DNA from: an uncultured Candidatus Saccharibacteria bacterium
GTDB lineage: Bacteria; Patescibacteriota; Minisyncoccia; Phycocordibacterales; PALSA-1337
Direction of reading: 5' to 3'
Assembly: GCA_964529025.1 (NCBI GenBank)
Contig: CAZGUZ010000002.1
Span: forward strand, 6,885-70,884
Length of the DNA: 64,000 bases
Position numbers and translations under genes: made by a program. The notes below the pieces were generated by a model that was given only the letters and a program-made list of their open reading frames with translations, did not search any database and had not been told where the DNA came from. Positions 33,590-61,920 of the stretch are shown here, piece after piece (the stretch's first letter is position 1; every line of letters starts with the position of its first letter).

Positions 33590-33625
33590 ACATACAGTAT
33601 AACACCGGCAAAAGCTCAACGGGGC

Positions 33626-48998: not shown

Positions 48999-50459
48999 TT
49001 ACCACACTATGTGTTCGTGGGCTCTGCCGTTCTTAATTTCAATCACTCGCTTAAAACCTACTTTATCGATAAAGAATCGATCATGCGAAACGGCAATGAT
49101 TGACCCTTCGTATTTCATAAGAGCCGATTCTATAACCTCACGTGAAGGAATATCGAGGTGATTTGTTGGTTCATCGAGAAGTAAACATTCATTATGCTGA
49201 TGAGTGAGCTTTGCAAACATGAGTCGCACTCGCTCGCCCATACTGAGTGATGAAATCTTTTTGAATACATCGTGGTTCGAAAACAAGAAGCCTCCCAGAA
49301 TAGCACGTGGATCATGTGTAGCAACTAGATTAGGTGTGCTCAAAAACTCTTCAAGAACTGTGCGATTAAGATCAGTAAAATCTTGCTCTTGGGCGAAATA
49401 CCCAACCGAGATATTGTCTCCAACTTTTACCACCCCACTATCTTGTGCCATCTTATTCATCATAATCTTAAGTAATGTGGTCTTTCCTGAGCCATTGATT
49501 CCTGAAAGCAATACACGCTCTTGTCCTCGAACTTCAAATGATATATTGTTAAGAACTTTCACTGGGCCAAAGCTCTTAGTGACTGAATTTATGCGATAGA
49601 CAAGTTTTGAACGTGCTGCTTCGCCTTCGAGGTGTGCTCCATGTATCTTTTTGTGTAGCCCTATGCGTTGGATTTCTTTATCAAGAATTTCACGCTGCAA
49701 ATATTTTTCTTTTGCTCGTATCATTCTACCTTTACTTGGATCGGGATGGACGGTTGCTTCGACTCGTTTGCGAGCGAGCCATTCTTCGAGTCGCTTCTTT
49801 TCGCGTTGTTGTCGGTCGTAAGCCTCATTGTGAATCTGTTCACGACGAGCACGTTCGACAAGATACGAACTGTAATTGCCTACATATTCATGCACACTAC
49901 GCTCGCGTGGACTTATTTCAAGGATTTTAGTAACCGTTGCATCAAGCAGACTTCGATCGTGAGATATGAGTATAACACCACCCTTAAATGACTGAATGAA
50001 ATGCTCAAGCCAATTTATTGTCGCTCGATCAAGGTGGTTTGTTGGTTCATCGAGGAGTAAAAATGTTGGTTTATTGCCAAGAACTTTTGCAAGTGACAAC
50101 CGGCGCTTTTGTCCACCACTCAAATCGTGCACAAGTGTACTTGGGGCAATATGACCAAGTCCGACATCGTGCAATGCTTTTATTTGTTGTGCAACAGGAA
50201 CCGTAGCAAGGTAGGTCGCCACAGTGTCAGTTACTTGGTACTCAATGTCTTGTGGTAAATATCCAATTCTTTCATGGTCAATGGCTATTGAACCAGCATC
50301 TGGTTCATGGAGACCAGCTATAGAACGCATAAGTGTTGTTTTACCACTACCATTAGGACCAACAATTCCCAATCTATCACCAGCTGTAATTACTATACTT
50401 ACTTGTTCGAATAGTGCTTCACCGAGTATGTGTATGCTTATATTTTTTATTTTTATCAT
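48999..50459 (-). CDS. ABC-F family ATPase (second paralogue)
   Basis: Two ABC cassettes with GPNGSGKTTL and GINGSGKTTL Walker A sites, LSGGQKRRL and LSMGERVRL signatures, and an Arg/Glu-rich linker. The start is taken at the internal Met MIKIKNI. Confidence 0.8.
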   Translation of the reverse strand: MIKIKNISIHILGEALFEQVSIVITAGDRLGIVGPNGSGKTTLMRSIAGLHEPDAGSIAIDHERIGYLPQDIEYQVTDTVATYLATVPVAQQIKALHDVGLGHIAPSTLVHDLSGGQKRRLSLAKVLGNKPTFLLLDEPTNHLDRATINWLEHFIQSFKGGVILISHDRSLLDATVTKILEISPRERSVHEYVGNYSSYLVERARREQIHNEAYDRQQREKKRLEEWLARKRVEATVHPDPSKGRMIRAKEKYLQREILDKEIQRIGLHKKIHGAHLEGEAARSKLVYRINSVTKSFGPVKVLNNISFEVRGQERVLLSGINGSGKTTLLKIMMNKMAQDSGVVKVGDNISVGYFAQEQDFTDLNRTVLEEFLSTPNLVATHDPRAILGGFLFSNHDVFKKISSLSMGERVRLMFAKLTHQHNECLLLDEPTNHLDIPSREVIESALMKYEGSIIAVSHDRFFIDKVGFKRVIEIKNGRAHEHIVW

Positions 50460-50716
50460 ATAGTTAGAAGAAAAAAACCAATAATTTCTATTGGGTTTTT
50501 TCTTCGCTCTTACTGCATATACATTACGAGATGCGTTCCGAAGCAAAAATTCCCAATAGTAAAACTGCCTGGGGTGTGAATCCCTTGAGTTCGTTGAGAA
50601 TGATGTTTGCTCGACGTTTCATACATATACTATACCACAGGATATATGCTAGGTCGAGCGCTATTTAATCCACACAATATCATAGCGGTACATACGCCCA
50701 AGGACAGATTGGTCTT

Positions 50717-51223
50717 TTATACTTTTCGCTGTATAAGGCGCTCAAGGATACTCGATTCATCAGCATCATCCCTACCAAATCGATGTCGTTGTTCTTTCAT
50801 GATTTCAATGAGTTGCTGTGGTGGCATAAAACGTACCTCACTCAAGGCTTCGATATCATCCTTAGCGCGTAGACTTTCATCAATTGATATAAGATTACAC
50901 AAAAAATATATTGTAGTCTTTTCTATAGAAACATTACCTTTAGGAAAATTGATAACAATAGGGCCAAGGTAATCAACAATTTCTCCGGTTGCACCAAACT
51001 CTTCTCGTAAGCCTCGATAAAGAGTTTCTTCTATTGACTCACCAAGTTCTGGAGTCTCACGCATAAGAATATACAGATCCTTAAATTCCCCCAATGAAGG
51101 ATGTTCAAACTTTTTAAAGTAGTGTACTGCGACTTCGCCCTGAGCATTTTGCATAACTGCACCTATAGAAAGATGATATGGGTGATTCTCTGTGCCTTTG
51201 AAGTAGTTAGTTTTGGGTTTCAT
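50717..51223 (-). CDS. NUDIX hydrolase
   Basis: Nudix box GESIEETLYRGLREEFGATG (GX5EX7REUXEEXGU). Confidence 0.75.
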   Translation of the reverse strand: MKPKTNYFKGTENHPYHLSIGAVMQNAQGEVAVHYFKKFEHPSLGEFKDLYILMRETPELGESIEETLYRGLREEFGATGEIVDYLGPIVINFPKGNVSIEKTTIYFLCNLISIDESLRAKDDIEALSEVRFMPPQQLIEIMKEQRHRFGRDDADESSILERLIQRKV

Positions 51224-51352
51224 ATTTCTATCATATCTCTTTTTGAGACTTTGTTCAAAATTTGTTGGGTGACGAGCTGGCTACTAGCGTTTACAAAAGA
51301 CTAATTATATAGCTCACTCAAGAATATTGCACTAGTTTTACCGTTGTAATCT

Positions 51353-52102
51353 TTACTCATAGTTCCACGTACTTAAGTCAAAGTTGGTGAAATCATAGAA
51401 CTTACTATTTTCAAGATTATACTGACCAAGATATGGGTTGTTTGTTGTAAGTCTAAAAGGATTTTTCTGAAAGAGATATACCAGACCTTTACTTGGAACA
51501 CCCGGATACACCCATAATAGCCACTCCTCCCTTCCTAGAGTATATTCGTTGCGGAGATTAATTTGTTTGTACAGAAGCAAGTAAGCTACTAAGTGCTCTT
51601 CAAGAAAAAAGTTAATTTGGTTTTCACTCTTCTCTCTCTTATAAAATTTAATATCTTCATCGATCCATTTTTGGAAGAGCTCGTCTTTTTTATACAACTT
51701 CCTGAGTTCTCGAAGCTTTCCATCAAAATCTTTAGTGTTTATATAAAGATCGTTCCAGTTTTGATAGGTAAATGCATGCTGAATCTGTAGTTTCTGTTTA
51801 TTCTTCTGCACAAGATTTTGGAGTGCGTTCTTGTGCTTAATTACTTCGATCATGAATCTCTCTTTGAGGATACTCGCTCTATCATCTGATAAAAGATATA
51901 GGAAATCTCCGTAAATAAAATTTAATCCTATCTTTGGCTCCGTTACTTTGTTTATACCAAAATCAAGAATCCACTCAATGCATTTTTGAGCAGACTGACC
52001 GGTGGCAATTCGAGACATAGAGATTGGCATAGCCACCATTCCCCAACCTTTCGGAAATTTGTTTATACCAAAAAACTTGTTCTTTGGAAGTTTATTATTC
52101 AT
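51353..52102 (-). CDS. Hypothetical protein (249 aa), very AT-rich codon usage
   Basis: No recognised motif. It is the first gene of the AT-rich block. Confidence 0.5.
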   Translation of the reverse strand: MNNKLPKNKFFGINKFPKGWGMVAMPISMSRIATGQSAQKCIEWILDFGINKVTEPKIGLNFIYGDFLYLLSDDRASILKERFMIEVIKHKNALQNLVQKNKQKLQIQHAFTYQNWNDLYINTKDFDGKLRELRKLYKKDELFQKWIDEDIKFYKREKSENQINFFLEEHLVAYLLLYKQINLRNEYTLGREEWLLWVYPGVPSKGLVYLFQKNPFRLTTNNPYLGQYNLENSKFYDFTNFDLSTWNYE

Positions 52103-52166
52103 GGAGGCAATAGTATCAGAGAATCCCGAACTTGCTAAGTTAAAAGGGTGATCTAATCCACTCTAC

Positions 52167-52670
52167 TCACAAACCCTTCATCGCTGTCTCAAGAATTAAT
52201 GTATCTCGTTCTTTAATTAATTTGCCACCATAGTCATCCGTAGCACTACCTGAAACAAGTTTGAGTGCTTCTGTAATATCGACCCAGACTGGTTGTTCAA
52301 AGCCTTGAGTCATTTCGCGTTCTGTAAGAGTTGTTTCTTTTCTATCGCCGACTATCTTGCCGATATAACAGTATGAAGTTTGAATTACTGAATACCCTGC
52401 TCTATACTCAATAATTTTTCCTAACTCTGAAATAACTTCTACGTCAGAACCGATTTCTTCCATACATTCTCTACGGAAAGCTGCGATTCTATCCTCACCT
52501 TCTTCTATACCTCCTCCGGGTAATTTATAGTATTGATATTTTGAGACATGCAAAATAGCGACCTTATTGTTTGAATCAAAAACTACACCTCGAGATGCTG
52601 AGCGAGGTTTGTATGTATGAGCAACTTCATCGCTCACTTTGTCTGGATTTATGATTCTAAGAATTTGCAT
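52167..52670 (-). CDS. NUDIX hydrolase (second)
   Basis: Nudix box GGGIEEGEDRIAAFRRECMEEIG. Confidence 0.75.
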   Translation of the reverse strand: MQILRIINPDKVSDEVAHTYKPRSASRGVVFDSNNKVAILHVSKYQYYKLPGGGIEEGEDRIAAFRRECMEEIGSDVEVISELGKIIEYRAGYSVIQTSYCYIGKIVGDRKETTLTEREMTQGFEQPVWVDITEALKLVSGSATDDYGGKLIKERDTLILETAMKGL

Positions 52671-52725
52671 TTTTGTTAAGTTAGTTGATTAGCTGCCCCA
52701 CACAAAACTGAGACTAATTTAAAAA

Positions 52726-53493
52726 CTAATTTATTATCTTAGAGATAAAACTATGCAATTCTGGGTTTGCAGCAAGCATTGTTGTATCTTTAAATGTCCA
52801 GGGTTTGCCTGTTGTGGCTGTTATTTTACAGCCAGATTCTTCGAGGATAAGCGAAGGTGCTGCATGATCCCATAATTCTCCTCCATTTGTGGCAAACCAA
52901 TCCCTTCTTCCAGTTGCAACATAGAGTGTATTAATCCCCATACCATAGAAACTTGTTGTAGACACCTTACCTGTTGAACTTGCATTGAGCATCTTTTGAA
53001 GCTTAACGATATCATCAGATCTTAGATTACCGCTGTAGCATCCTACGGTATTATCAAGAGACTTCATCTGTGTGCATGTAACTCTTTCATTGTTCAAATA
53101 GGCACCCGCACCTCTTTTTGCATAGCAAAGTTCGTCGTGTATTGGATCGTATATCACCGCCAATTCAACAACTCCCGCTTTTGCTCGTGCTATTAAAACT
53201 GTGTATAAAGGAATACTTTTTGAAAAGTTGAGTGTTCCATCGAGTGGATCAATTATCCAAACGTACTCGGCATCTGTATTTGATTCTCCGGTTTCCTCAG
53301 AAATGATTCCGTCCTGAGGAAATTCTTTTTTGATTGATTCGGTAATAAATTTATTAGAAGCAAGATCTGCTTGTGTTACTACATCGAGTGCATGCTCTTT
53401 AATATATTGAACTTCGGCTTTCTTAAAAAATTCGAGAGTAATCTTACCTGCTTGTTTTGCTATATCCTGAATGAATTGTTCTGGATTTGTCAT
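52726..53493 (-). CDS. Inositol-monophosphatase-family phosphatase (SuhB/CysQ-like)
   Basis: Contains ISEETGE...WIIDPLDGTLNF, the IMPase/FBPase metal-binding signature. Confidence 0.8.
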   Translation of the reverse strand: MTNPEQFIQDIAKQAGKITLEFFKKAEVQYIKEHALDVVTQADLASNKFITESIKKEFPQDGIISEETGESNTDAEYVWIIDPLDGTLNFSKSIPLYTVLIARAKAGVVELAVIYDPIHDELCYAKRGAGAYLNNERVTCTQMKSLDNTVGCYSGNLRSDDIVKLQKMLNASSTGKVSTTSFYGMGINTLYVATGRRDWFATNGGELWDHAAPSLILEESGCKITATTGKPWTFKDTTMLAANPELHSFISKIIN

Positions 53494-53656
53494 AGAGTAA
53501 CGTTATCATATTTGAAGAAAAATGACATAGTAAAACCCAGACCGAATTGTCTGGGTTGAAGTTATGTGCCCACACGCCAATACCCTAATCCAGACAAAAA
53601 AACGCGTCGGAGGAATCCGACGCGCTGTTCGTGGGTTGGTGATGAGGATGGGCATT

Positions 53657-54214
53657 TTATAATATTTTGAACTCGTATTCGGACAGATGAAGCTCTTCCA
53701 AATCACAACCGACATCATCTAGTTTGTCTTTATACTCTTCTTTGTAATGTGGAATAATTTTGAATGGCAAAATACCGAGCCCCTCAAAGACACCATCTGC
53801 GTGTGGGCTGTAAAAATACTTACACCAGACATTTGCCCCAGCTGATTCTCCTGCAACCACTTTACCCTGAAGATATTTGTGAAGTTCTGGGTACTTCTTT
53901 AATGCACCGAGAAGCTTTAAGCTTACACCGCCATGGAAATAAATAATATCTGCATTTTTGACCTGATCGACAAAATGATCTTCGTTCGCGGTCTCAATAA
54001 AGATTTCCCTATCACCTTTCACACTATTGAATTCAGTAGTTACCTTTTCAATCGCACGGGGTATACGATCAGAATCTTTGGCAAATGGCACAAGTAGTAG
54101 GCGCTTACCCTGAGAATCGGCTTTTAAAATTGTCGAGTAAAAATCACTGTTATCTCTTCCTTTTTCTTCTGTATTAAATCCTCCATGGAGGATAAAAGTA
54201 ATATCCTTATTCAT
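53657..54214 (-). CDS. Peptidase S51-like (dipeptidase E / class I glutamine-amidotransferase-like fold)
   Basis: Contains the GESAGA nucleophile elbow, an upstream HGG and a fold-typical length. Assignment is tentative. Confidence 0.5.
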   Translation of the reverse strand: MNKDITFILHGGFNTEEKGRDNSDFYSTILKADSQGKRLLLVPFAKDSDRIPRAIEKVTTEFNSVKGDREIFIETANEDHFVDQVKNADIIYFHGGVSLKLLGALKKYPELHKYLQGKVVAGESAGANVWCKYFYSPHADGVFEGLGILPFKIIPHYKEEYKDKLDDVGCDLEELHLSEYEFKIL

Positions 54215-54244
54215 GTATTATTCTATAATCTAAATCGTCCTGGT

Positions 54245-54847
54245 CTAACCCAAAAACTTATCTGGAAAATTTCCTGACTGTTCCCAAGCAAATTTATGTC
54301 TTTCCTTAAAAGCGACCTTTACTTCTGGTAAAACAATCTTTCTCTCCCAATCTTTCTTTAGTTTATTTCTGTTTGATTCCATTAATTCTGGAATAGATTT
54401 CTTATTATTTTCCTTAAAATAAATTGACCAGAATGGACCGATAAGATGAGATGCGGCATCAGCAGAAGAAACAATTTTTACTTCAATTGGGGCTTCGTTA
54501 AGATCGATTTCCATCTTTTTTTCAAAGATAGCAAGATATGTAATTACTTTATCAACAAAGCCTTCATTCAATCCGATCTCAAGTAATTTTGTGCGTCCCT
54601 CTTCAAACATCTTCTCATCATGTTCATTGTCCTTATCTAGAATTTTGGCATAATCATGAATCCAGACCAAAGCCATTACTACATCTCTGTCGGCATCTTT
54701 ATAAATATCACATAGTTCAAAAGAGATCCTCTCGACAAAATTCAAATGGAGATCGACAAACCAGTCATGGTGAATAAACGTAGGATTTTTTGTTGCGTCA
54801 ATCACATGATTCTTAAACTGCCCTAAAAGCTTAGTGTTTGATGGCAT
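54245..54847 (-). CDS. HD-domain-like phosphohydrolase
   Basis: His/Asp pairs (IHHD...LVWIHDYAK...D) are spaced as in HD hydrolases. Confidence 0.45.
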   Translation of the reverse strand: MPSNTKLLGQFKNHVIDATKNPTFIHHDWFVDLHLNFVERISFELCDIYKDADRDVVMALVWIHDYAKILDKDNEHDEKMFEEGRTKLLEIGLNEGFVDKVITYLAIFEKKMEIDLNEAPIEVKIVSSADAASHLIGPFWSIYFKENNKKSIPELMESNRNKLKKDWERKIVLPEVKVAFKERHKFAWEQSGNFPDKFLG

Positions 54848-54952
54848 ATATCAATATTAACTTAATTTTCTTTATTGTCATACCAAATCGGTGGTGTTCA
54901 ATAATCTAGAAATTTATACGTAACGCTCTGTAAGTATATTTATAGCCATGAT

Positions 54953-56002
54953 TTAGGCTTTAGGATTCAAGAGATCTCTGTTTTTCTTCAAATACTCCTG
55001 AATAACAGCTATTCTCTCGGGTCGATTTGTTGTGTGCCAGCGTGGGATTCGCCCATGGCTACTCACAATGATAGCTGCATGGAGAACACTTCGATCAAAA
55101 TCTTTTTCTCCGAAATAACCCTTTATCATCTGCTCTGCCGCCTCTTCTGAATTATAGTGCGAGACTGCTATGATAATTGCCAAACCAAGATCTAAGATAG
55201 GATGATTAAAAGCTGGAGTTGGATCAAAAATAGTTAATGGTTCTGTAGCAAATACATTGTATGCTGAAAAATCATTGTGGCAGTATGTACTTCGCTTATC
55301 ATGAGCTGCTTGCTGTTTGATTATTTCAATAGCCTGATCAATTGATCCATGATCTGAATCATTAAGAAGTCGGTGTTCTTGAGTGTATTTAAGTCTCTTT
55401 GAAATATGCATTGGAAACCATTCGGAGAAAGTTTTGTAATCAGGTTTACCATTATGCACGGGTCCGTAACCGTCGACATTTCTTGTATGCATCTTTGCGA
55501 GGAGAGATCCAAGTGAATGGAATATATTCCGTGACAGCATTTCTTCCAAAGAATATGTTTGACCTAGAATTGGTGCATCGACATACTTCATAAGTGTATA
55601 TGGTCTATCACCCACATAACCCTCTTCTACTATATGTGGTACTGATACTCCATCTTCTTCCCAGGTTTTGAGAAAGGCCCCTTCTCCTTCTATGGGCTTA
55701 GGTAAAAGTGTTATCTTGAGTACGTACTTATTTTCTTCTGCATTAATGATTGATACGAGAGAAGTTTGGCCGGCTTGAGCGAATGTGATTTCTACTTCTT
55801 TGTCTTTAAAAAGTTTGTGGCTGGAAATGAAATCACTGATTTTTGGAACGAGTTCTTTTTTTATTTGATTGCGGCTTTCGTCAACGCTGTGTTCAGAGAG
55901 TTTTGGTTTGTTGAGAAAGGTTGGGTTTTTCATTTGTTTATTATATCTCGTTTTTGGGGTTGTGGGGGGGTGGAAATTTGTGCTGACACACTTAACTCTC
56001 AC
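54953..56002 (-). CDS. Aminoglycoside-phosphotransferase-like / choline-kinase-like small-molecule kinase
   Basis: Brenner motif CHNDFSAYN (HxDxxxxN) plus a downstream IFDPT...D metal-binding Asp. The real start may be MKNPTF. Confidence 0.65.
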   Translation of the reverse strand: MRVKCVSTNFHPPTTPKTRYNKQMKNPTFLNKPKLSEHSVDESRNQIKKELVPKISDFISSHKLFKDKEVEITFAQAGQTSLVSIINAEENKYVLKITLLPKPIEGEGAFLKTWEEDGVSVPHIVEEGYVGDRPYTLMKYVDAPILGQTYSLEEMLSRNIFHSLGSLLAKMHTRNVDGYGPVHNGKPDYKTFSEWFPMHISKRLKYTQEHRLLNDSDHGSIDQAIEIIKQQAAHDKRSTYCHNDFSAYNVFATEPLTIFDPTPAFNHPILDLGLAIIIAVSHYNSEEAAEQMIKGYFGEKDFDRSVLHAAIIVSSHGRIPRWHTTNRPERIAVIQEYLKKNRDLLNPKA

Positions 56003-56590
56003 CTATTCTTCAATGATTTTCACAATTTTGAGAGCTGGATAATCATCTTTATTCTCAAATGACTTTCTGTAGTATTCGTTCCAGTAGCTCGTCATTCGCG
56101 ATTTTGTCTTTTCCCAAAAGATGGGATTATCAGTAATAAATTTCTTATACAGAGCTTTATCTTTTTCAACAGCTCCTTTTGTCATCTCGACTATTTCTAT
56201 AACGTATTCCCCTAGCAACATAACGACAAAAGGCACTGTCCAAGGTGTCTCGTTCTCGAGGATTTTCTTCAAATGCTTTTGGCGAACGAAACCATCGTGG
56301 TGTCTTGTATATATACAGCTTAAAACTAACTGCTGTGTAGCGGTAAGACTACTGGTAGCAGAACTATCAGGCTCAGGGTTATATATTCTTGAGTAAATTC
56401 GAATCGAATCAGACTCTACAGAGAGAGTTTCTTCTGTCTTATGTGGAAGATGTTTGCTTTTGGGAATAAGCATAGCCACAACCTCCACATCTGAATTAAG
56501 GGTTGATGGAAACATTTCAAAAAATGCTTCGGACTCTTGTTTTGTTTTCTTGAGCAGATTAAACATATGAAACATTATATCTCTTATCAA
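56003..56590 (-). CDS. Hypothetical protein (195 aa), translationally coupled to the kinase gene
   Basis: There is zero gap to the downstream kinase ORF. No motif was recognised. Confidence 0.45.
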   Translation of the reverse strand: MIRDIMFHMFNLLKKTKQESEAFFEMFPSTLNSDVEVVAMLIPKSKHLPHKTEETLSVESDSIRIYSRIYNPEPDSSATSSLTATQQLVLSCIYTRHHDGFVRQKHLKKILENETPWTVPFVVMLLGEYVIEIVEMTKGAVEKDKALYKKFITDNPIFWEKTKSRMTSYWNEYYRKSFENKDDYPALKIVKIIEE

Positions 56591-56675
56591 GATTTTTACT
56601 ACATTGAATATATTTGGAGAACTGTACTGAGCAAAATTATGCGCTTTGGCAGCCAGACCTTTCTTGTGTTATTTA

Positions 56676-57779
56676 CTAAGGGTACTGAAACAAATTATTC
56701 AAATCAAGTATCCTTCCTATACTTTCTGCACGACCTGTTTCTACGAATGTAGGTATACCCAAAACGCAACCGGAATCCTTGACTGCTATTCCACCAGAAT
56801 TTCCATGCTCTATTTTTGCGGAGGTTTTTATATACCTCACCCCATTATCATCTTCAAAGCCAGAGATTATACCATCCGTAACAGTAAGAGATGAACCACC
56901 AACTCCAGGATATCCTAAAACAGATAAGTGGTCCCCGATACTTACAGACTTACAATAAGTAGTTAAATTTTTACTTTTAGCATATTTTGCTAAATCATTC
57001 TTGTTGCCAGCACGCGCTGTGTTTATGATCTGGGGAAAGATATAAGCAAAATCTGTACCGTACTTATATATTTGGTATCCAGAGGACTTATATACTAAGT
57101 AATTATCGGTCTCACGATAATTTGGATACAGGATCACAGCGCACTGCGATGTCGATCCATCTGATGTTTCAACAACGTGAAGATTGGTCTCTATAAAATA
57201 TGCTGATGGATCGTTTGATGGAGAATAATAAAGGAGACCGGACCCGACCTGCAAGTTGTCACCGTAGGCATCTGAGGCACACACCACCTTCACAACAGCT
57301 GAAGATAACGACGACAGCAAGTTACTTATATTCCCAGAAGGGTTTTGCCTTGTATTCGAATTAATGTCAGCTTCGAGCCTTTGAATTTGAGTATCTTTCT
57401 TGCTTAACTCTTTTTCTTGAGTAGTAAGTCGCTGAGTCGTTGAAGAGGCCATATCCAGTAATTTTGCCTGTGTTTCTTGTAATTGCTTTGAAGTTTGCAG
57501 AATCACTGATTGAGTTTTTTTATATGATTCATACAGGTGTTGCCAAGCGAGAATTGCAGATACTGCGAGTAAAACAGCTAGAATAATTCCCCCTATCACT
57601 AATGGGCTAGTTTTTTTAGTCTGTTTGACTTTTCTCATTGTCAAAGACACGTACGTCGAGACTCTTTTTACTAATGTATTCTGAAGAAAAAAACTATTGT
57701 TATGGACTTCTTTTCCACAATTGTCACAAAAATTATGCCCCTCATCAATTTCCATGCCGCAGTTACTACAAAAAACCAT
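56676..57779 (-). CDS. Zinc-ribbon / TM / coiled-coil / trypsin-like (S1) serine protease fusion protein
   Basis: The N-terminus carries CSNCG...CDNCG, a 4-Cys zinc ribbon. A single TM helix and a Q/E-rich coiled coil follow. The C-terminal domain has GNSGGIAV (the GDSGG-type catalytic Ser motif) and an upstream His/Asp. Confidence 0.6.
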   Translation of the reverse strand: MVFCSNCGMEIDEGHNFCDNCGKEVHNNSFFLQNTLVKRVSTYVSLTMRKVKQTKKTSPLVIGGIILAVLLAVSAILAWQHLYESYKKTQSVILQTSKQLQETQAKLLDMASSTTQRLTTQEKELSKKDTQIQRLEADINSNTRQNPSGNISNLLSSLSSAVVKVVCASDAYGDNLQVGSGLLYYSPSNDPSAYFIETNLHVVETSDGSTSQCAVILYPNYRETDNYLVYKSSGYQIYKYGTDFAYIFPQIINTARAGNKNDLAKYAKSKNLTTYCKSVSIGDHLSVLGYPGVGGSSLTVTDGIISGFEDDNGVRYIKTSAKIEHGNSGGIAVKDSGCVLGIPTFVETGRAESIGRILDLNNLFQYP

Positions 57780-57784
57780 ACTAT

Positions 57785-58870
57785 TTATACAGATAAAAGA
57801 AAACTTTTTACTCTATCATTATAAATTTTATAATATTCAAGACTACTTTGTGCAGAAGAATTGTAATCTTTCAAGTAATACTCCATTGATTTACAGAGGT
57901 AGTTGGCGGCATAGTACAAATCGTCTGCAGCATTTACGTAAGTAGACGGCATGCCTGTGAATCTGTCATTTAGTTCTAAAGCATCACTTTGCGCCGTACT
58001 ACATGCTGAAATTGCGGCTCCGAGATACAGGTTGGCAGAGTTATACTCACCATCATTCCAATCTGTTATCCCTTTTAATGCATTACCGAGTCCGTTTGAA
58101 GTAAGATTATTGTATATAGTCGTCAATTGACTGACAAAAGATTTTGCGACCTCTAGCGAACGAGCCGCAGATGCTTTTGATTGAGCATCGATTGCTGCTT
58201 GTTGTGCATTTTGCTCAGCTCTAACCTTTGCGGCTTGAGCAGCCGCTGCTGCTGCCTTATTCTTTTCTGCCTGTGCCGCAGCTACTACAGCCTCTCTCTT
58301 ACTTGTGTTTACCTCACCTTCAAGCACAAGTACAAGACTATCCTGTACTTTTTTTATTTCGGCTTGAACATTTTCATATTCTGGGTAACTCGAATCTATT
58401 GATTGAAGTTCGCTGAGAGCTTTCTTTAAACTGCCAGATGAAGTGGTTGTTGCTGTTGAAGTAGCATTTTGGATTGCAACAGCATTGTCGAACGATGTCT
58501 TGAAAGAAATAAATTTTAGACCGTCAGACCTTATAGTATCTATTCTGGATTTTTGACTTTCTGATATTTTTTTATTTTCTAACTGGAGCAAAGTGTTGAT
58601 TGACTCCTTGTAGTTACCAGTCGATTGCAATTCTTTTGCTGAGTTTATTTTTGACTCAACTAAATAATACGCATATCCCTTTGATCCACCGTAAACTAGA
58701 CCGCCTAAGAATATTAAAATTACTATCGTCAATACGATTGGGCTTCTCCAGGTGAGCTTAAAAGAATACTTTGCAGTAACTTGTCGAGATAATTCTAGCA
58801 AATCACTTCCGCAAGACCGACAGAACCTACTACCTGAACGATTTTCCTTGCCACATTGATCGCAATGCAT
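57785..58870 (-). CDS. Zinc-ribbon / TM / Ala-rich coiled-coil extracytoplasmic protein
   Basis: The N-terminus carries CDQCG...CRSCG, followed by a TM helix and a long Ala/Gln-rich helical region. The architecture parallels the neighbouring protease fusion. Confidence 0.5.
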   Translation of the reverse strand: MHCDQCGKENRSGSRFCRSCGSDLLELSRQVTAKYSFKLTWRSPIVLTIVILIFLGGLVYGGSKGYAYYLVESKINSAKELQSTGNYKESINTLLQLENKKISESQKSRIDTIRSDGLKFISFKTSFDNAVAIQNATSTATTTSSGSLKKALSELQSIDSSYPEYENVQAEIKKVQDSLVLVLEGEVNTSKREAVVAAAQAEKNKAAAAAAQAAKVRAEQNAQQAAIDAQSKASAARSLEVAKSFVSQLTTIYNNLTSNGLGNALKGITDWNDGEYNSANLYLGAAISACSTAQSDALELNDRFTGMPSTYVNAADDLYYAANYLCKSMEYYLKDYNSSAQSSLEYYKIYNDRVKSFLLSV

Positions 58871-59248
58871 TTTAGTTAAATTAATCTTAACACTAATAAT
58901 AATTTATTAAAAAGTTCAAAACTCGCCATAGAAACCTTACTTGTTTCCTATCAGCCTAGATAAATTAGATGATAGATTCTTTACTCTTTGTCCAAATTTT
59001 ATCTACACCTTCAATCTACTTGCCATTCTAGGTTGTATGTTAGTTATCCTTTATATAAAATACCACACTAATGTGTATTCTAAAAAAAATCCACATTCAT
59101 CAATACCTTAACTATCACTATTTTATCTTACTTTCATATTTTACCATATAAGTATTTTTAGTTGTTTTAATTTTATCTTCTGACATCGGGTAAGTATTAA
59201 AGTACACGTCTGGATATTTGATAGTCAGATTCATGCTCACTAACGCTT

Positions 59249-59869
59249 CTACATGTTTAATTCAAGATATCCCCATGACAATAAGATTATCGCGATTATA
59301 AACGAAATCACAAAAAAGATATTAAGGGATTTGAGTATTTTAAAATCAAGTTGCCTATTTTTTGCTTCTTGCCTCTCCTTTACAGCTGCCTTCAACTCAT
59401 CCTTTTGCGCAAAATAATTTTCTATTTCAGATATAATCTCTTTGTCTAATTTTTGATCTTGTTTTCTTTTGATCGCCGATAATTTATTACAAATACTGAT
59501 TGCACCTTGCTGAAATTTGACTAATAATTCCCTCTCCCACTTATCATCACTCAATATAGACTTCTTATCTCTTTCAATAACCATGGCGAGAATAACTATT
59601 CCACAGAGAGTAGTCAGAATAAAAAATACTACAGTTAGTATCAATACGCGAGAATGACCAATTTGAATAGTTGGTGCAACAACTGTTAGAAATGCAACGC
59701 TAATTGACGACAGTGCGAGAACAAGATTAAATCCTCTATCTGCATTTCTGTATTGTAAATCTGCAGTCTTCTGAGATAAGCTAATTAATTGTTGAGTCCA
59801 ATTATCCGAGGTTTCAGAAAAAACTGCTATTAGGTTATCCAATTCATTTGAAATCATTTTTACATGCAT
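59249..59869 (-). CDS. Hypothetical membrane protein (3 TM)
   Basis: Hydrophobic segments with charged coiled linkers. The ORF abuts the next gene with no gap. Confidence 0.45.
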   Translation of the reverse strand: MHVKMISNELDNLIAVFSETSDNWTQQLISLSQKTADLQYRNADRGFNLVLALSSISVAFLTVVAPTIQIGHSRVLILTVVFFILTTLCGIVILAMVIERDKKSILSDDKWERELLVKFQQGAISICNKLSAIKRKQDQKLDKEIISEIENYFAQKDELKAAVKERQEAKNRQLDFKILKSLNIFFVISFIIAIILLSWGYLELNM

Positions 59870-60547
59870 TTAGCCTCTTAATCTACTTAAAGCAACTTTA
59901 GTTGCTTCTCGACGTAATTCAGTTAGAGTATTTATTCCCAATATTTCTCTTATTATTTCGACTACTTCTTCTATTGCCATTTTAGACTCCTCATCATTCT
60001 CACTTTTTGTATGTCCCAAAACAAGACCTAGTAATCTATAAACTCTTTTGACTGTATCATCTCTTTCTTTGCCAAAACCTTGATAATCTAAAAGATTTTC
60101 TTTTGCACCCATTTCAATTAAAGCAGTTTCAATTGGTCTTAATTCACCTTCAATCTTTTTTGTAAGCCATGCTGAATGTTTTTGGCGTATATTTACCAAT
60201 TCCCTACCTATATTCATTAAATTCTTAGAAGCACCGTCTCTATATATTTCCTGTAGTCCTTTTTGCAATCTATCTACGTATTCTTCACAAAACAATGCGT
60301 GTTTGTCATAAGCAACTTTAGCCATATGAGAAGCTGTTCCTAAAATAAAGTCTTGTTGTTCATTTTGCAATTGTTCATCCTTCCACGTTTTATAAAGAGA
60401 AAGACACAAAGCTCCAATCCCGGGTATAGCTGCAATACCTTTAAAGACCTTGTCTATAGGAAGATAGTATGCGGATAAAAAAGAGGCGGCTAATACAATT
60501 ATTAGCAATATATAAGTTGACCAATTTTTAATTTTAATATTTTTCAC
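59870..60547 (-). CDS. Hypothetical protein with N-terminal TM anchor
   Basis: The ORF fills the interval with a single N-terminal TM. No motif was recognised. Confidence 0.45.
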   Translation of the reverse strand: MKNIKIKNWSTYILLIIVLAASFLSAYYLPIDKVFKGIAAIPGIGALCLSLYKTWKDEQLQNEQQDFILGTASHMAKVAYDKHALFCEEYVDRLQKGLQEIYRDGASKNLMNIGRELVNIRQKHSAWLTKKIEGELRPIETALIEMGAKENLLDYQGFGKERDDTVKRVYRLLGLVLGHTKSENDEESKMAIEEVVEIIREILGINTLTELRREATKVALSRLRG

Positions 60548-60577
60548 ATCTTTCTTTAACTAGTTCAAACAGATTAC

Positions 60578-60692
60578 GGGGCTTGGACTCGCCCTCGCCT
60601 CTCATCTCGCCGTCGCTCGATTCGGGCTGGGCACCGCCTCGCAGTTCGCCGTACTCGGCTCACATAGCTCCGGCGTTCTCGTCATCATACCC
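60578..60692. repeat. Direct repeat copy 2 (~115 bp, GC-rich) beginning with a 15-nt copy of the tRNA-Gln 3' end
   Basis: The sequence cggggcttggactcgccctcgcctctcatctcgccgtcgctcgattcgggctgggcaccgcctcgcagttcgccgtactcggctcacatagctccggcgttctcgtcatcataccc matches 61588..61702 with one mismatch. Its first 15 nt are the reverse complement of CGAGTCCAAGCCCCG from the tRNA T-arm/acceptor 3' side. Confidence 0.8.
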
Positions 60693-60834
60693 TCAGTATA
60701 GCGCACAACAAGAAACCCGCTATAGGTGGGATTTTGTGGACCAAATGAGACATCTGCACTAAAACCGTAATCGTCCAACCCTAACCTACTCCGTCTGGCT
60801 TATTTTTAACTCACCGAACGACCCGTTTCGTGCA

Positions 60835-61524
60835 CTAGGAAATCTTGCCATTAATATAATCTTTTACTGCTTTTATAACACTCACGACCTCTTCTCCAAA
60901 TTTATCTTCCTTATCATTGAGCCAATCGCCCTGATTGTACATGATATTATGTATTTCCATGTAGTCCTTGGTTCTAATTTTTGGCTGGAAATTCTGCTTT
61001 AAGGCAATATTTAAATCTGTTATCTTTACATAAAGAGGTTTGACTATTTGCCTAACTTCAGGCCCCCACAACACCTCAGCTTCAAGTAAATTTGATTCCA
61101 TTTCGGTAGACGCATTCGTGATTTCCTCCCACCTCATCTCATATACATATGGATGAACGTTCTTCTCCAATTCCTCTTTGAGTTTATCTGGATACTTTGT
61201 CCTTGCATATTGAATCGCTCTATAATCCTCCGAAGGAAATATGGCTGGATTCCTGACGTGCTTTATTGCATCCCTAAGTTTTAGGAGAGATAGATGTAAA
61301 TTATCAGCAACTTCACTTTTGATTTGCTTTCTCCATGTAAACAAACCGCCACTAGCAATATAAAGACCCGTCACCGTTAATATCAATGTTACCCAATCGT
61401 TTAAAAAAGGATAAACTGGGTGAACAAAAAACGCAGGGTAAAGGCGGTAAAAAACTAGTCCGGAGATGGATACAGCGAGGATCCAGAAAAATACTCCCTT
61501 AACGCTAACACTGTCTTTCACCAT
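60835..61524 (-). CDS. Hypothetical 2-TM membrane protein flanked by the two direct repeats
   Basis: The ORF has two N-terminal TM helices and an AT-rich composition. It is the only gene between the repeat copies. Confidence 0.5.
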   Translation of the reverse strand: MVKDSVSVKGVFFWILAVSISGLVFYRLYPAFFVHPVYPFLNDWVTLILTVTGLYIASGGLFTWRKQIKSEVADNLHLSLLKLRDAIKHVRNPAIFPSEDYRAIQYARTKYPDKLKEELEKNVHPYVYEMRWEEITNASTEMESNLLEAEVLWGPEVRQIVKPLYVKITDLNIALKQNFQPKIRTKDYMEIHNIMYNQGDWLNDKEDKFGEEVVSVIKAVKDYINGKIS

Positions 61525-61587
61525 GAGATTGATTATTACTACTTCCTACAGCTTTACTAATTGATACACCTCGTACAACTTGGCGGC

Positions 61588-61702
61588 GGGGCTTGGACTC
61601 GCCCTCGCCTCTCATCTCGCCGTCGCTCGATTCGGGCTGGGCACCGCCTCGCAGTTCGCCGTACTCGACTCACATAGCTCCGGCGTTCTCGTCATCATAC
61701 CC
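61588..61702. repeat. Direct repeat copy 1 (~115 bp) with the tRNA-Gln 3'-end core
   Basis: Near-identical to 60578..60692. The shared 15-nt core with the adjacent tRNA gene suggests an att-like junction. Confidence 0.8.
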
Positions 61703-61705
61703 CGC

Positions 61706-61751
61706 TTTCAGAATGAATAAAAGAGATACGCTTTGCGCATCTCTTTTATTC
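61706..61751 (-). terminator. Long perfect hairpin immediately 3' of tRNA-Gln (tRNA terminator)
   Basis: The minus strand reads aatgaataaaagagatgcgcaaagcgtatctcttttattcatt, a ~17-bp stem. Confidence 0.5.
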
Positions 61752-61755
61752 ATTA

Positions 61756-61826
61756 GCTGCGGGGCTTGGACTCGAACCAAGATTCTACGCTCCAGAGGCG
61801 CATGTCCTACCATTAGACGATCCCGC
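61756..61826 (-). tRNA. tRNA-Gln (anticodon CUG)
   Basis: The reverse complement UGCGGGAUCGUCUAAUGGUAGGACAUGCGCCUCUGGAGCGUAGAAUCUUGGUUCGAGUCCAAGCCCCGCAG folds as a cloverleaf. It has U1-A72 and discriminator G (bacterial tRNA-Gln identity), U8, a GG in the D-loop, anticodon loop CU-CUG-GA with U33, a 5-bp T-stem CUUGG/CCAAG and a UUCGAGU T-loop. CCA is not encoded, and there is one A-C mismatch at the base of the acceptor stem. Confidence 0.8.
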
Positions 61827-61920
61827 AAAATTTTGTTATGCCTTATTACTGTACTCGCTATAACAATGTGCCACAAATAATACCTTAAAATGGGGTAAAA
61901 AGGAAGAGTGCGCCAAGTCT

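What the first reader, a model, noticed from the sequence alone, without database searches (positions are those of the whole stretch)
51300..61755. AT-rich, tRNA-adjacent island encoding a cluster of small-molecule phosphoesterases and a kinase (2 NUDIX, IMPase-like, HD, S51-like, APH-like kinase) plus unknowns
From ~51.3 kb to the tRNA the GC content drops sharply and all 13 ORFs are minus-strand and tightly packed, with several overlaps or zero gaps. In order they are: unknown 249 aa, NUDIX, IMPase-family phosphatase, S51-like peptidase, HD-like hydrolase, APH-like kinase translationally coupled to an unknown 195-aa protein, zinc-ribbon protease, zinc-ribbon coiled-coil protein, and three small membrane proteins. 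A further NUDIX sits just outside the boundary. The co-localisation of a kinase with multiple nucleotide/phosphoester hydrolases in a likely horizontally acquired block is not a canonical operon that I recognise. It could be a nucleotide-derived signal or toxin turnover module, a resistance or detoxification cassette, or an uncharacterised defence island.
Basis: partly seen in the sequence, partly recalled or inferred. Interest (0 to 1): 0.65.

Follow-up and report, generated by a model that had tools for sequence, protein, structure and literature searches.

The report
Patchwork gene island beside tRNA-Gln
A 10-kb stretch next to a glutamine tRNA gene in a tiny-genome (Paceibacteria-type) bacterium really is compositionally foreign, but it is a patchwork of unrelated stand-alone genes rather than one system; its most interesting gene is a previously unannotated, very distant relative of cyclodipeptide synthases.

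Summary
The block exists and is atypical. GC is 0.372 against 0.419. The tetranucleotide signature correlates at r=0.37-0.55 with the rest of the window, against about 0.78 elsewhere. Synonymous codon usage differs clearly (RSCU r=0.66, null 0.93), with more AGA/AGG, ATA and TTA. The block abuts the 3' end of tRNA-Gln(CTG). Two extra copies of the tRNA's last 15-16 nt, each ending a 99%-identical 116-nt repeat, lie next to the tRNA and bracket one gene. All domain calls hold; HD is borderline.

It is not a functional cassette. PADLOC, PHROGs, phage and plasmid searches give nothing. There is no integrase. A strong terminator and eight gaps of 105-378 nt split it. Homologs of the kinase, the 195-aa protein, the 249-aa protein and the IMPase have unrelated neighbours in every other genome examined, and 0 of 80 loci pair the kinase with the 195-aa protein. 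In relatives, tRNA-Gln is followed directly by the 195-aa or the IMPase ortholog, so this is a variable tRNA-flanking region built piecemeal.

The parts
61756..61827 (-). tRNA-Gln (anticodon CTG). Its 3' end faces the block.
   Evidence: ARAGORN; Rfam tRNA 50.8 bits
61712..61754 (-). AT-rich hairpin immediately after the tRNA, possibly the tRNA terminator
   Evidence: Read by eye from the sequence. Not reported by the consensus terminator scan.
61587..61702 (-). 116-nt GC-rich direct repeat, copy A. Its last 15-16 nt duplicate the T-loop/T-stem/acceptor 3' end of the tRNA.
   Evidence: the repeat finder family D2, 99% identity; alignment; 15-mer found 3 times against 0.05 expected; no Rfam family; fold z=-1.9
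60835..61524 (-). 229-aa protein with two N-terminal TM helices, no family match, bracketed by the two 116-nt repeats
   Evidence: codon LLR +0.097
60577..60692 (-). 116-nt direct repeat, copy B, ending in the tRNA 3'-end mimic (1 mismatch)
59870..60547 (-). 225-aa protein with two N-terminal TM helices, no family match, 0-nt junction with the next gene
   Evidence: codon LLR +0.141, the most atypical gene
59249..59869 (-). 206-aa membrane protein (central and C-terminal hydrophobic segments), no family match
   Evidence: codon LLR +0.121
57785..58870 (-). 361-aa protein: N-terminal zinc ribbon, one TM helix, Ala/Gln-rich coiled-coil ectodomain
   Evidence: Pfam Zn_Ribbon_1 28.6 bits; TM 37-65
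56676..57779 (-). 367-aa protein: N-terminal zinc ribbon, one TM helix, trypsin-like (HtrA-type) serine protease domain
   Evidence: Pfam Trypsin_2 46.9 bits and Zn_Ribbon_1 30.8 bits; weak NCBIfam HtrA-family matches
56003..56566 (-). The '195-aa unknown' (187 aa by the database gene call): an all-alpha HEAT/ARM-like repeat protein of a widespread uncharacterised family. In the closest relatives it is the first gene after tRNA-Gln.
54953..55933 (-). 326-aa APH/fructosamine-3-kinase-like small-molecule kinase (HNDFSAYN catalytic loop)
   Evidence: Pfam APH 56.3 bits and Fructosamin_kin 27.7 bits; 28 homologs, all Patescibacteria-type, several labelled fructosamine-3-kinase by JGI
54245..54847 (-). 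200-aa HD-domain-like phosphohydrolase (borderline profile score)
   Evidence: Pfam HD 21.9 bits against cut-off 22; no PDB sequence relative
53657..54214 (-). 185-aa peptidase S51 (PepE/cyanophycinase-like), GESAG nucleophile motif
   Evidence: Pfam Peptidase_S51 68.1 bits; NCBIfam PepE 38 bits, below cut-off
53601..53626 (-). Strong intrinsic terminator (11-bp stem, 7 G-C pairs, T-run) that splits the block into at least two transcription units
   Evidence: sequence
52726..53493 (-). 255-aa SuhB/IMPase/HisN-family phosphatase. In L010 and L011 its ortholog lies next to tRNA-Gln.
   Evidence: Pfam Inositol_P 184.7 bits; HisN 171.8 bits, below the 275 cut-off; closest PDB relatives SuhB/IMPase at 1.9e-32; L010 79% and L011 73%
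52167..52670 (-). 167-aa Nudix hydrolase
   Evidence: Pfam NUDIX 46.9 bits
51353..52102 (-). The '249-aa unknown': a cyclodipeptide-synthase-fold protein of an unannotated family with 231 clusters at 50% identity, found in Paceibacterota/Nomurabacteria-type MAGs
50717..51223 (-). 168-aa Nudix hydrolase just outside the block, with host-like codon usage
   Evidence: Pfam NUDIX 38.6 bits; codon LLR -0.047

Best explanation
The 51.3-61.75 kb block is a real, lineage-specific, compositionally foreign mosaic region that abuts the 3' end of tRNA-Gln(CTG) in the chromosome of a Paceibacteria-type (Patescibacteria/CPR) bacterium. It was most likely built piecemeal, not acquired as one system.

The tRNA-proximal part (about 56.6-61.75 kb: three small membrane proteins and two zinc-ribbon membrane proteins) was inserted between tRNA-Gln and genes that flank tRNA-Gln in relatives (the 195-aa HEAT-like protein and the IMPase). 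At least one event was site-specific insertion at the tRNA. It left two duplicated tRNA 3' ends, each inside a 116-nt repeat. No recombinase remains, so the region is now a fixed remnant.

The genes work independently:
- Two Nudix hydrolases, an HD-like hydrolase and a SuhB/IMPase-family phosphatase are generic small-molecule phosphoesterases.
- A fructosamine-kinase/APH-like kinase.
- An S51 dipeptidase-like enzyme.
- A membrane-anchored HtrA-like protease.
- A cyclodipeptide-synthase-fold protein that probably acts on aminoacyl-tRNA.

Shown: the composition, the scars, the domain and fold identities, and the lack of conserved neighbourhoods. Inferred: the direction and order of insertions, and every biochemical activity.
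For: COMPOSITION
- GC 0.372 against 0.419.
- Tetranucleotide r=0.37-0.55 against 0.78+-0.06.
- RSCU r=0.66 against a null of 0.93.
- AGA/AGG, ATA and TTA are enriched. The per-gene codon LLR is graded, strongest next to the tRNA, and drops sharply to -0.126 across the tRNA.

SCARS
- Three same-strand copies of the tRNA 3' 15-mer against 0.05 expected.
- A 116-nt repeat at 99% identity brackets gene 60835-61524.

COMPARATIVE
- tRNA-Gln is directly followed by the unk195 ortholog in L066 (71%) and L004/L005 (53%).
- tRNA-Gln is followed by the IMPase ortholog directly in L011 (73%) and after one 118-aa ORF in L010 (79%).
- L004 carries Exo_endo_phos, LigT, NUDIX and AAA_33 between unk195 and an 81%-identical DUF1653 ortholog, where the window carries a different gene set.

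NO MODULE
- Kinase homolog neighbourhoods are unrelated.
- 0 of 80 unk195 loci carry any other block protein.
- IMPase orthologs share nothing else with the window.
- unk249 orthologs have different neighbours.
- An internal terminator and large gaps split the block.

NO DEFENCE OR PHAGE SIGNAL.
Against: - No integrase, transposase or other mobility gene lies in or beside the block.
- The tRNA 3'-end duplicates delimit only about 1.2 kb. No copy marks the distal end of the block.
- GC3 equals the host's, so a recent arrival from a compositionally distant donor is unlikely.
- The atypical codon usage (rare AGA/ATA/TTA) could also reflect weakly expressed native genes.
- The 249-aa family is highly conserved across Paceibacterota (46-81% identity). 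Its gene has the least atypical codon usage (LLR -0.004), so the 51.3-kb boundary is soft.
- The comparison loci are few and distant. No genome-level sister with an 'empty site' was found.
- The flanks upstream of the tRNA-Gln(CTG) loci differ between relatives, so orthology of the tRNA loci is not proven.
Confidence: 0.6

Rival explanations
1. Native variable region. The block is vertically inherited, weakly expressed and fast-evolving chromosomal DNA. Its odd codon, amino-acid and oligonucleotide usage reflects relaxed selection on lowly expressed accessory genes. The tRNA 3'-end copies arose by local duplication or gene conversion, not by integration of foreign DNA.
For: - GC3 is identical to the host's.
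- The enriched codons are the classic rare or low-expression set.
- There are no mobility genes.
- unk195 and IMPase orthologs are tRNA-Gln neighbours in relatives, so at least these look ancestral to the locus.
- unk249 is a conserved lineage family.
- No phage, plasmid or viral similarity was found.
Against: - The tetranucleotide signature is 3.6 to 6.5 sd away from every other part of the window, including other small unannotated genes.
- The boundary at the tRNA is sharp and the gradient decays away from it.
- The duplicated sequence is exactly the part of a tRNA that integrative elements duplicate.
- The five tRNA-proximal genes are absent from all relatives' tRNA-Gln loci.
Confidence: 0.25
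2. Functional cassette. The kinase and the phosphoesterases (2 Nudix, IMPase, HD), with the two unknowns, form one pathway. Candidates are synthesis or turnover of a nucleotide-derived signal or toxin, a detoxification or resistance cassette, or an anti-phage defence system.
For: - The genes are co-directional, and some junctions are short (0, 5 and 30 nt).
- Codon usage is atypical across all the genes.
- One unk195 homolog (L065) lies near HamA plus a helicase and an Ea47-like gene.
- A CPR relative (L004) also has a run of small nucleic-acid or nucleotide enzymes after tRNA-Gln and unk195.
Against: - No pair of block genes is conserved in any of about 100 related loci examined.
- PADLOC hits are generic domains only.
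- A strong terminator and 105-378-nt gaps break the block.
- The kinase-unk195 'coupling' is an ORF-calling artefact.
- unk249 is a CDPS-fold protein, not a phosphoester enzyme.
Confidence: 0.07
3. Remnant of a single integrated element (prophage or ICE) that entered at tRNA-Gln as one roughly 10-kb piece and then lost its integrase and structural genes.
For: - It is adjacent to the tRNA 3' end, with att-like duplicates.
- The whole 51-62 kb stretch is compositionally atypical.
Against: - No distal att copy exists.
- No phage, ICE or plasmid-type gene is present by Pfam or PHROGs.
- No relatives of the block's genes tested (TM229, TM225, the CDPS-fold family) were found in IMG/VR; the unk195 family has 3 viral loci at 27-38% identity. 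No meaningful DNA match in INPHARED or PLSDB.
- The codon atypicality is graded rather than uniform.
- unk195 and IMPase orthologs flank tRNA-Gln separately in relatives.
Confidence: 0.08

Closest known systems
tRNA-associated genomic islands / integrative-element remnants
   Same: It abuts the 3' end of a tRNA gene and has same-strand duplicates of the tRNA 3' end. Codon and oligonucleotide usage are atypical. The cargo is unrelated accessory genes, and content varies among relatives.
   Different: There is no integrase or any other mobility gene. The duplicated tRNA ends bracket only about 1.2 kb (one gene) instead of the whole block. GC3 is not shifted. The host is a CPR bacterium in which such islands are poorly documented. 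Each tRNA-end copy is embedded in an identical 116-nt repeat of unknown nature.
Cyclodipeptide synthases (CDPS; Pfam PF16715; AlbC, YvmC, Rv2275, ParcuCDPS)
   Different: There is no detectable similarity to the Pfam CDPS model in any of 41 members (E<=10). The family-wide catalytic Glu and first Tyr do not align to conserved columns. Instead an invariant F165/E168/E169 cluster lies 9-10 residues earlier on the same helix. The family is conserved like a lineage housekeeping gene and is not flanked by tailoring enzymes. No activity is known.
Fructosamine-3-kinase / aminoglycoside phosphotransferase (APH) superfamily
   Same: The kinase matches the Pfam APH and Fructosamin_kin models above their cut-offs and has the HxDxxxxN catalytic loop.
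   Different: It reaches no NCBIfam equivalog threshold and has no PDB sequence relative at E<=1e-3. It has no resistance-gene context, and its substrate is unknown.
Nudix, HD and IMPase 'house-cleaning' phosphoesterases
   Same: These are stand-alone small enzymes of those superfamilies, with family motifs present. The IMPase is closest to SuhB/IMPase/HisN proteins.
   Different: None reaches an equivalog cut-off, so substrates cannot be assigned. Their co-location here is not reproduced in other genomes.
Integron gene cassettes
   Same: Small, unrelated, promoter-poor accessory genes lie head-to-tail. One gene is bracketed by a repeated recombination-site-like sequence. Some homologs of the 195-aa protein are fused to the Hfx_Cass5 integron-cassette domain.
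   Different: There is no IntI integrase and no attI. The 116-nt repeat shows no significant attC-like folding (z=-1.9), and only one gene is bracketed.

Membership tests
tRNA-integrated genomic island | Located at the 3' end of a tRNA gene | tested here: met
   tRNA-Gln(CTG) at 61756-61827 on the minus strand; the block starts at 61755
tRNA-integrated genomic island | Direct repeats of the tRNA 3' end flanking the whole island | tested here: inconclusive
   Two extra copies at 61586-61600 (exact) and 60576-60590 (1 mismatch), against 0.05 expected by chance. They bracket only 60.59-61.59 kb, and none lies near 56.6, 53.5 or 51.3 kb
tRNA-integrated genomic island | Integrase or recombinase gene | tested here: not met
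   No such domain in any ORF from 46 to 64 kb
tRNA-integrated genomic island | Atypical composition relative to the host | tested here: met
   GC, tetranucleotide signature and RSCU are all outliers; GC3 is not
tRNA-integrated genomic island | Variable presence among related genomes | tested here: inconclusive
   Every relative's tRNA-Gln locus has different downstream genes. All relatives are distant, and no empty-site allele from a close relative was available.
Known anti-phage defence system (PADLOC 2.0) | Match to system-specific protein models in a system-like arrangement | tested here: not met
   Only NUDIX to PDC-S07 (30 and 19 bits), the trypsin domain to the protease part of RT-Protease_XI, and a coiled coil to JetC. 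Nothing for the other proteins
Conserved operon / functional gene cluster | Gene pairs retained in divergent genomes | tested here: not met
   Kinase loci; 80 unk195 loci with 0 co-occurrences; IMPase orthologs; unk249 orthologs
Conserved operon / functional gene cluster | A single transcription unit | tested here: not met
   Predicted intrinsic terminator at 53626-53601 and eight gaps of 105-378 nt. This is a prediction only; no transcript data exist.
Cyclodipeptide synthase (for ORF 51353-52102) | Match to Pfam PF16715 (CDPS) | tested here: not met
   No hit for the window protein, nor for any of 41 family members at E<=10
Cyclodipeptide synthase (for ORF 51353-52102) | CDPS / class-Ic aaRS-like Rossmann fold | tested here: met
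Cyclodipeptide synthase (for ORF 51353-52102) | Detectable sequence-profile homology to CDPSs | tested here: inconclusive
   Not significant with the narrow profile. A 66-sequence profile against a 4-sequence CDPS alignment gives hhalign probability 74.4%, P 2.7e-5, over 191 columns
Cyclodipeptide synthase (for ORF 51353-52102) | Catalytic Ser (Ser37 in AlbC, S26 in ParcuCDPS; PMC7613923, PMC12945691) | tested here: met
   S28 follows the first beta-strand, is present in 63 of 66 family representatives, and aligns to the G-x-S serine in the hhalign alignment
Cyclodipeptide synthase (for ORF 51353-52102) | Second conserved Tyr (Tyr202 in AlbC, Y191 in ParcuCDPS) followed by His or Pro (NYH/XYP; PMC5816076) | tested here: met
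   Y199 is present in 66 of 66 and P200 in 54 of 66. They align to the Y-H of the CDPS alignment
Cyclodipeptide synthase (for ORF 51353-52102) | Catalytic Glu and first Tyr on the preceding helix (Tyr178/Glu182 in AlbC; Y167/E171 in ParcuCDPS) | tested here: inconclusive
   hhalign puts them on Y174 (Y in 28 and H in 24 of 66) and on the variable position 178. The invariant F165/E168/E169 lie 9-10 residues earlier on the same helix. Settling the register needs a structural superposition, which these tools do not give. Y167F ParcuCDPS keeps activity (PMC7613923).
Cyclodipeptide synthase (for ORF 51353-52102) | Forms cyclodipeptides from two aminoacyl-tRNAs | not testable with these tools
   Requires expression and LC-MS
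Nudix, IMPase, S51, APH superfamilies | Pfam gathering threshold passed | tested here: met
   NUDIX 46.9 and 38.6 against 21.1; Inositol_P 184.7 against 27; Peptidase_S51 68.1 against 23.9; APH 56.3 against 23.2
HD phosphohydrolase superfamily | Pfam gathering threshold passed | tested here: inconclusive
   21.9 bits against 22.0. The H...HD...D residues are visible in the sequence. There is no PDB sequence relative.

The most novel reading that the evidence does not exclude
The 249-aa protein founds an undescribed, deeply divergent branch of the cyclodipeptide-synthase / class-Ic aaRS-like superfamily. It is almost confined to Paceibacteria-type CPR bacteria (with some bins labelled Pacearchaeota) and conserved there like a housekeeping gene. 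It would use aminoacyl-tRNA through a Ser28 acyl-enzyme with a re-registered Glu168/Glu169 catalytic pair, to make a cyclodipeptide or to perform another aminoacyl-transfer reaction important to these reduced organisms. Separately, the 116-nt repeat that mimics the tRNA 3' end could mark an integrase-independent way of capturing single-gene cassettes at tRNA-Gln.
Probability: 0.35. Interest if true: 0.65.

Novelty: new member of a known kind. Interest (0 to 1): 0.35.

Why it matters
For the finding as posed, the value is mostly negative. A tempting 'kinase plus phosphoesterases' cassette is shown to be a chance neighbourhood in a variable tRNA-flanking region, so it should not be pursued as a signalling or defence system.

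Two by-products are worth keeping.
- It gives a documented case, with scars and a graded codon signature, of island-like gene accretion at a tRNA gene in a CPR bacterium that has no recognisable integrase.
- It uncovers a well-conserved protein family of 231 clusters at 50% identity that current profile libraries do not annotate. Predicted structure and a broadened profile link it to cyclodipeptide synthases. If active, it would extend aminoacyl-tRNA-dependent chemistry in organisms with minimal metabolism, and it is directly testable by heterologous expression.

Tried and rejected
- Defence-system reading: PADLOC on all 13 proteins plus flanks gave only generic domain hits. Rejected.
- Prophage or plasmid reading. 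PHROGs gave nothing specific. IMG/VR scans with TM229, TM225 and the CDPS-like alignment found nothing. blastn of 53.7-61.7 kb against INPHARED and PLSDB gave none, or a trivial 183-bp hit. Rejected.
- Kinase-unk195 co-variation: pointless, because the pair does not co-occur anywhere else.
- General tRNA-Gln linkage of the unk195 family: 0 of 71 more distant loci. It is only local synteny in close relatives.
- tRNA 3'-end duplicates in relatives L010, L011, L004, L066 and L067: none found.
- The 116-nt repeat. It matches no Rfam family and folds only marginally better than shuffles (z=-1.9). It is absent from all fetched loci. A 22-mer from it has no exact match in IMG/VR or JGI metagenomes. 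Its nature stays open.
- Single-donor hypothesis from contig GC: the closest orthologs sit on contigs of GC 0.34-0.49. There is no single donor.
- Sequence-only links for the two unknowns: profile searches of the PDB found nothing. The narrow hhalign comparisons with CDPS were not significant.
- AFDB fold search: the library was unavailable.
- Paralogy among the three small membrane proteins: none. Only the two zinc-ribbon proteins share their N-terminal module, at E=0.001.
- L066's gene upstream of tRNA-Gln is not the DNA pol III delta'-like gene that precedes tRNA-Gln(TTG) in L004 and L011. The tRNA-Gln(CTG) loci therefore cannot be shown to be positionally orthologous.

Full report
WHAT THE WINDOW IS. 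Outside the block, the 64-kb window carries ordinary chromosomal genes: a solute-binding protein, RNase J, enolase, iPGM, photolyase, two ABC-F ATPases, a Bax-inhibitor-like protein and several giant surface proteins with peptidoglycan-binding domains. Exact-sequence look-ups place it on a 116,711-bp NCBI MAG contig and on Logan contigs from runs SRR10036056, SRR10036058 and SRR10036063. The closest species-representative genomes for one block gene are a 'Candidatus Paceibacterota bacterium' and a 'Candidatus Taylorbacteria bacterium'. The host is therefore a Paceibacteria-type member of the Patescibacteria (CPR).

CHECKING THE OBSERVATION: COMPOSITION AND DOMAINS. tRNA-Gln(CTG) is at 61756-61827 on the minus strand, with its 3' end facing the block. 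Twelve credible minus-strand ORFs fill 51353-61524.
- NUDIX at 52167-52670, and a second NUDIX at 50717-51223 just outside the block.
- Inositol_P at 184.7 bits.
- Peptidase_S51 at 68.1 bits.
- APH at 56.3 bits, with Fructosamin_kin at 27.7 bits.
- Trypsin_2 with a zinc ribbon, and a second zinc-ribbon protein.
- HD is borderline, 21.9 bits against a cut-off of 22.0.
No enzyme reaches an NCBIfam equivalog cut-off. The IMPase is closest to SuhB/IMPase structures.

GC is lower in the block, 0.372 against 0.419 in bulk and 0.366 against 0.421 per gene (p=7e-7). GC3 is not lower, 0.312 against 0.330 (p=0.80), so the GC drop comes from codon positions 1 and 2, with more Lys, Asn, Glu and Tyr. The block is still clearly atypical by measures that do not depend on base composition.
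- 4-kb tetranucleotide signatures correlate at 0.37-0.55 with the rest of the window, against 0.78+-0.06 elsewhere.
- Synonymous codon usage correlates at 0.66, against a null of 0.93 and a minimum of 0.83.
- Block genes prefer AGA/AGG, ATA and TTA. A leave-one-out likelihood ratio is positive for 11 of 12 block genes and negative for 32 of 35 others.
- That ratio is strongest in the three genes next to the tRNA (+0.10 to +0.14), intermediate in the zinc-ribbon genes, S51, HD and IMPase (+0.05 to +0.07), and near zero for the 249-aa gene. It falls to -0.126 just across the tRNA.

CHECKING THE OBSERVATION: CORRECTIONS.
- There are 12 ORFs, not 13.
- The minus-strand run starts at 40.3 kb, so co-directionality is not special to the block.
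- Packing is uneven, with gaps of 0-378 nt, eight of them at least 105 nt. A strong intrinsic terminator sits at 53626-53601 between S51 and the IMPase.
- The kinase is not translationally coupled to the 195-aa ORF. The database gene call and all homologs start at the ATG at 55933, which leaves 69 nt between the two genes.

INTEGRATION SCARS. Reading the sequence after the tRNA shows that its last 15-16 nt (GAGTCCAAGCCCCG, covering the T-loop, T-stem and acceptor 3' strand) recur twice on the same strand. The copies are at 61586-61600 (exact) and 60576-60590 (one mismatch), against 0.05 matches expected by chance. Each copy ends a 116-nt GC-rich direct repeat (61587-61702 and 60577-60692, 99% identical) whose flanks are unrelated. 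The repeats bracket the 229-aa membrane-protein gene. This is the geometry left by insertion at a tRNA 3' end, but several things limit the inference.
- It accounts for only about 1.2 kb.
- No further copy exists at any other junction of the block.
- No integrase is present.
- The repeat matches no Rfam family and folds only marginally better than shuffled sequence (z=-1.9).
- It is absent from the fetched loci, and a 22-mer from it has no exact match in IMG/VR or JGI metagenomes.
- Five relatives have no duplicates of their own tRNA-Gln 3' ends.

COMPARATIVE EVIDENCE.
- IMPase. The orthologs in L010 (79%) and L011 (73%) lie immediately downstream of a tRNA-Gln, with one small ORF between them in L010. 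Nothing else from the 64-kb window lies within +-10 kb of either.
- unk195. In L066 (71%) and in L004/L005 (53%) the ortholog is the first gene after a tRNA-Gln. In L004 it is followed by Exo_endo_phos, LigT, NUDIX and AAA_33 genes, then by an 81%-identical ortholog of the window's DUF1653 gene. A different set of small enzymes therefore occupies the equivalent interval.
- Flanks. L004 and L011 share the upstream POTRA, S11, Dus and DNA-pol-III-delta' genes. The flanks upstream of the tRNA-Gln(CTG) loci differ.
- Kinase. Homologs at 41-57% identity sit among unrelated genes.
- Wider unk195 family. Among 80 further loci, none of the 71 with enough upstream sequence has a tRNA-Gln, and none of the 80 carries a relative of the kinase or of any other block protein.
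- unk249. Orthologs at 80% and 78% identity have GrpB and an IMPase paralog (26% identity), or DprA and Fic, as neighbours.
The region after tRNA-Gln is therefore a variable spot in this lineage. unk195 and the IMPase are recurrent tRNA-Gln neighbours. The five membrane-protein genes between the tRNA and unk195 are specific to this genome. No gene pair behaves as a module.

NO DEFENCE OR MOBILE-ELEMENT SIGNAL. PADLOC gives only generic matches: NUDIX to PDC-S07, the trypsin domain to the protease part of RT-Protease_XI, and a coiled coil to JetC. PHROGs gives only generic protease and zinc-ribbon hits for one protein. Viral-contig scans and phage and plasmid blastn are negative. One unk195 homolog (L065) lies near HamA, a helicase and an Ea47-like gene. 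Some homologs are fused to the integron-cassette domain Hfx_Cass5 or to GNAT. That fits an accessory, cassette-like gene, but it assigns no function.

THE 249-AA UNKNOWN. This is the most interesting gene in the block.
- It has no Pfam, NCBIfam, PHROG or PADLOC match.
- Its family is strongly conserved, at 46-81% identity across Paceibacterota, Nomurabacteria and bins labelled Pacearchaeota. An exhaustive profile search finds 231 clusters at 50% identity.
- Sequence profiles do not see this at first. A broader 66-sequence family profile aligns end to end with a small CDPS alignment, at hhalign probability 74%, P 2.7e-5, over 191 columns.
- In that alignment the nearly invariant S28 falls on the catalytic serine. 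The invariant Y199, followed by P200, falls on the Tyr-His/Pro signature that defines the NYH and XYP subfamilies (PMC5816076).
- The literature names four residues conserved across the CDPS family: Ser, Tyr, Glu and Tyr. They are S26, Y167, E171 and Y191 in the Parcubacteria enzyme, and the Y167F mutant keeps activity (PMC7613923). Ser37 and Glu182 are the AlbC equivalents of the Ser and Glu (PMC12945691).
- The Glu and the first Tyr align to non-conserved columns here. An invariant F165/E168/E169 cluster lies 9-10 residues earlier on the same helix. The register is unresolved without a structural superposition.
I therefore call it a CDPS-fold protein and a probable very distant CDPS homolog. 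It is not a member of the CDPS family as currently defined. A text search for 'CDPS-like' and two related phrases found no paper in the searched library.

VERDICT. The 'acquired island' idea is reasonably supported as a mosaic built piecemeal at a variable tRNA-Gln flank. The 'kinase plus phosphoesterase system' idea is not supported. The main rival is that the region is native and weakly expressed. That would explain the unchanged GC3 and the rare-codon pattern. It explains the sharp tRNA boundary, the gradient and the duplicated tRNA ends less well. As a genomic feature it is an ordinary kind of thing, a decayed tRNA-associated islet in an unusual host. Its lasting value is the unannotated CDPS-fold family, and to a lesser degree the 116-nt repeat that mimics the tRNA 3' end.

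Noticed in passing
window 9036-10067 (+) and 39156-39659 (+): Two genes with no Pfam match are strong high-GC outliers: GC 0.53 and 0.51, GC3 0.58 and 0.55, against about 0.42 and 0.32 for their neighbours. They may be separate acquisitions from a GC-richer donor.
   Followed up: no
window 10124-13270 (-) and 26597-33619 (-): Giant surface-type proteins of 1048 and 2340 aa carry internal DNA repeats. One has units about 340-400 nt and 738 nt apart. The other has 58-nt matches about 3.09 kb apart, pointing to a large internal duplication (families D1, D3, D5, D8, D9). The 2340-aa gene also has the lowest tetranucleotide correlation outside the block.
   Followed up: no
L010 9283-17258: In the Paceibacterota genome STB_107, the IMPase ortholog (79%) after tRNA-Gln is followed by several genes. 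Pfam identifies a PhnB-like gene (3-dmu-9_3-mt), an NMNAT-like cytidylyltransferase, a 249-aa Nudix gene and a Prs-like gene. By eye, PncB-like and NadE-like genes follow. Together this looks like an NAD-salvage neighbourhood and could hint at an NADP or nucleotide phosphatase role for this IMPase.
   Followed up: partly
L065 1520-6136: A 51%-identical homolog of the 195-aa protein lies a few genes from a HamA-domain gene, a ResIII/DEAD helicase (Hachiman-like) and a lambda Ea47-like gene. This looks like a defence-island context in another CPR-type contig.
   Followed up: no
Proteins P0061, P0041, P0046 and others, and P0013: Bacteroidota-type homologs of the 195-aa family carry a C-terminal Hfx_Cass5 'integron cassette protein' domain. 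One homolog carries a C-terminal GNAT acetyltransferase domain.
   Followed up: partly
Proteins P0195, P0200, P0201, P0228: Members of the CDPS-fold family at 47-56% identity are labelled 'Candidatus Pacearchaeota archaeon' by NCBI. This is either mis-binning or sharing of the family between CPR bacteria and DPANN archaea.
   Followed up: no
L063 11719-12342 (-): A canonical Pfam-recognised CDPS gene, next to an HTH regulator, lies 2.7 kb from a homolog of the window's kinase in another Patescibacteria-type contig. This is probably coincidence. I used it as the CDPS reference sequence.
   Followed up: partly
L011 9953-10693: The Taylorbacteria IMPase ortholog aligns only from query residue 22, and its ORF starts with an unrelated low-complexity stretch right after tRNA-Gln. 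Its 5' end may have been disrupted by a rearrangement at the tRNA.
   Followed up: no
L133, L138, L144: In one high-GC lineage (GC 0.66-0.70), the homolog of the 195-aa protein lies directly downstream of a tRNA-Gly/Cys/Val cluster. This is a second, independent tRNA-adjacent context for the family.
   Followed up: no
window 36779-36815, 49152-49188, 50028-50064: The two ABC-F paralogs (35798-37288 and 48999-50546) share 37-nt near-repeats at their Walker/signature regions (family D6). This is ordinary paralog conservation.
   Followed up: no
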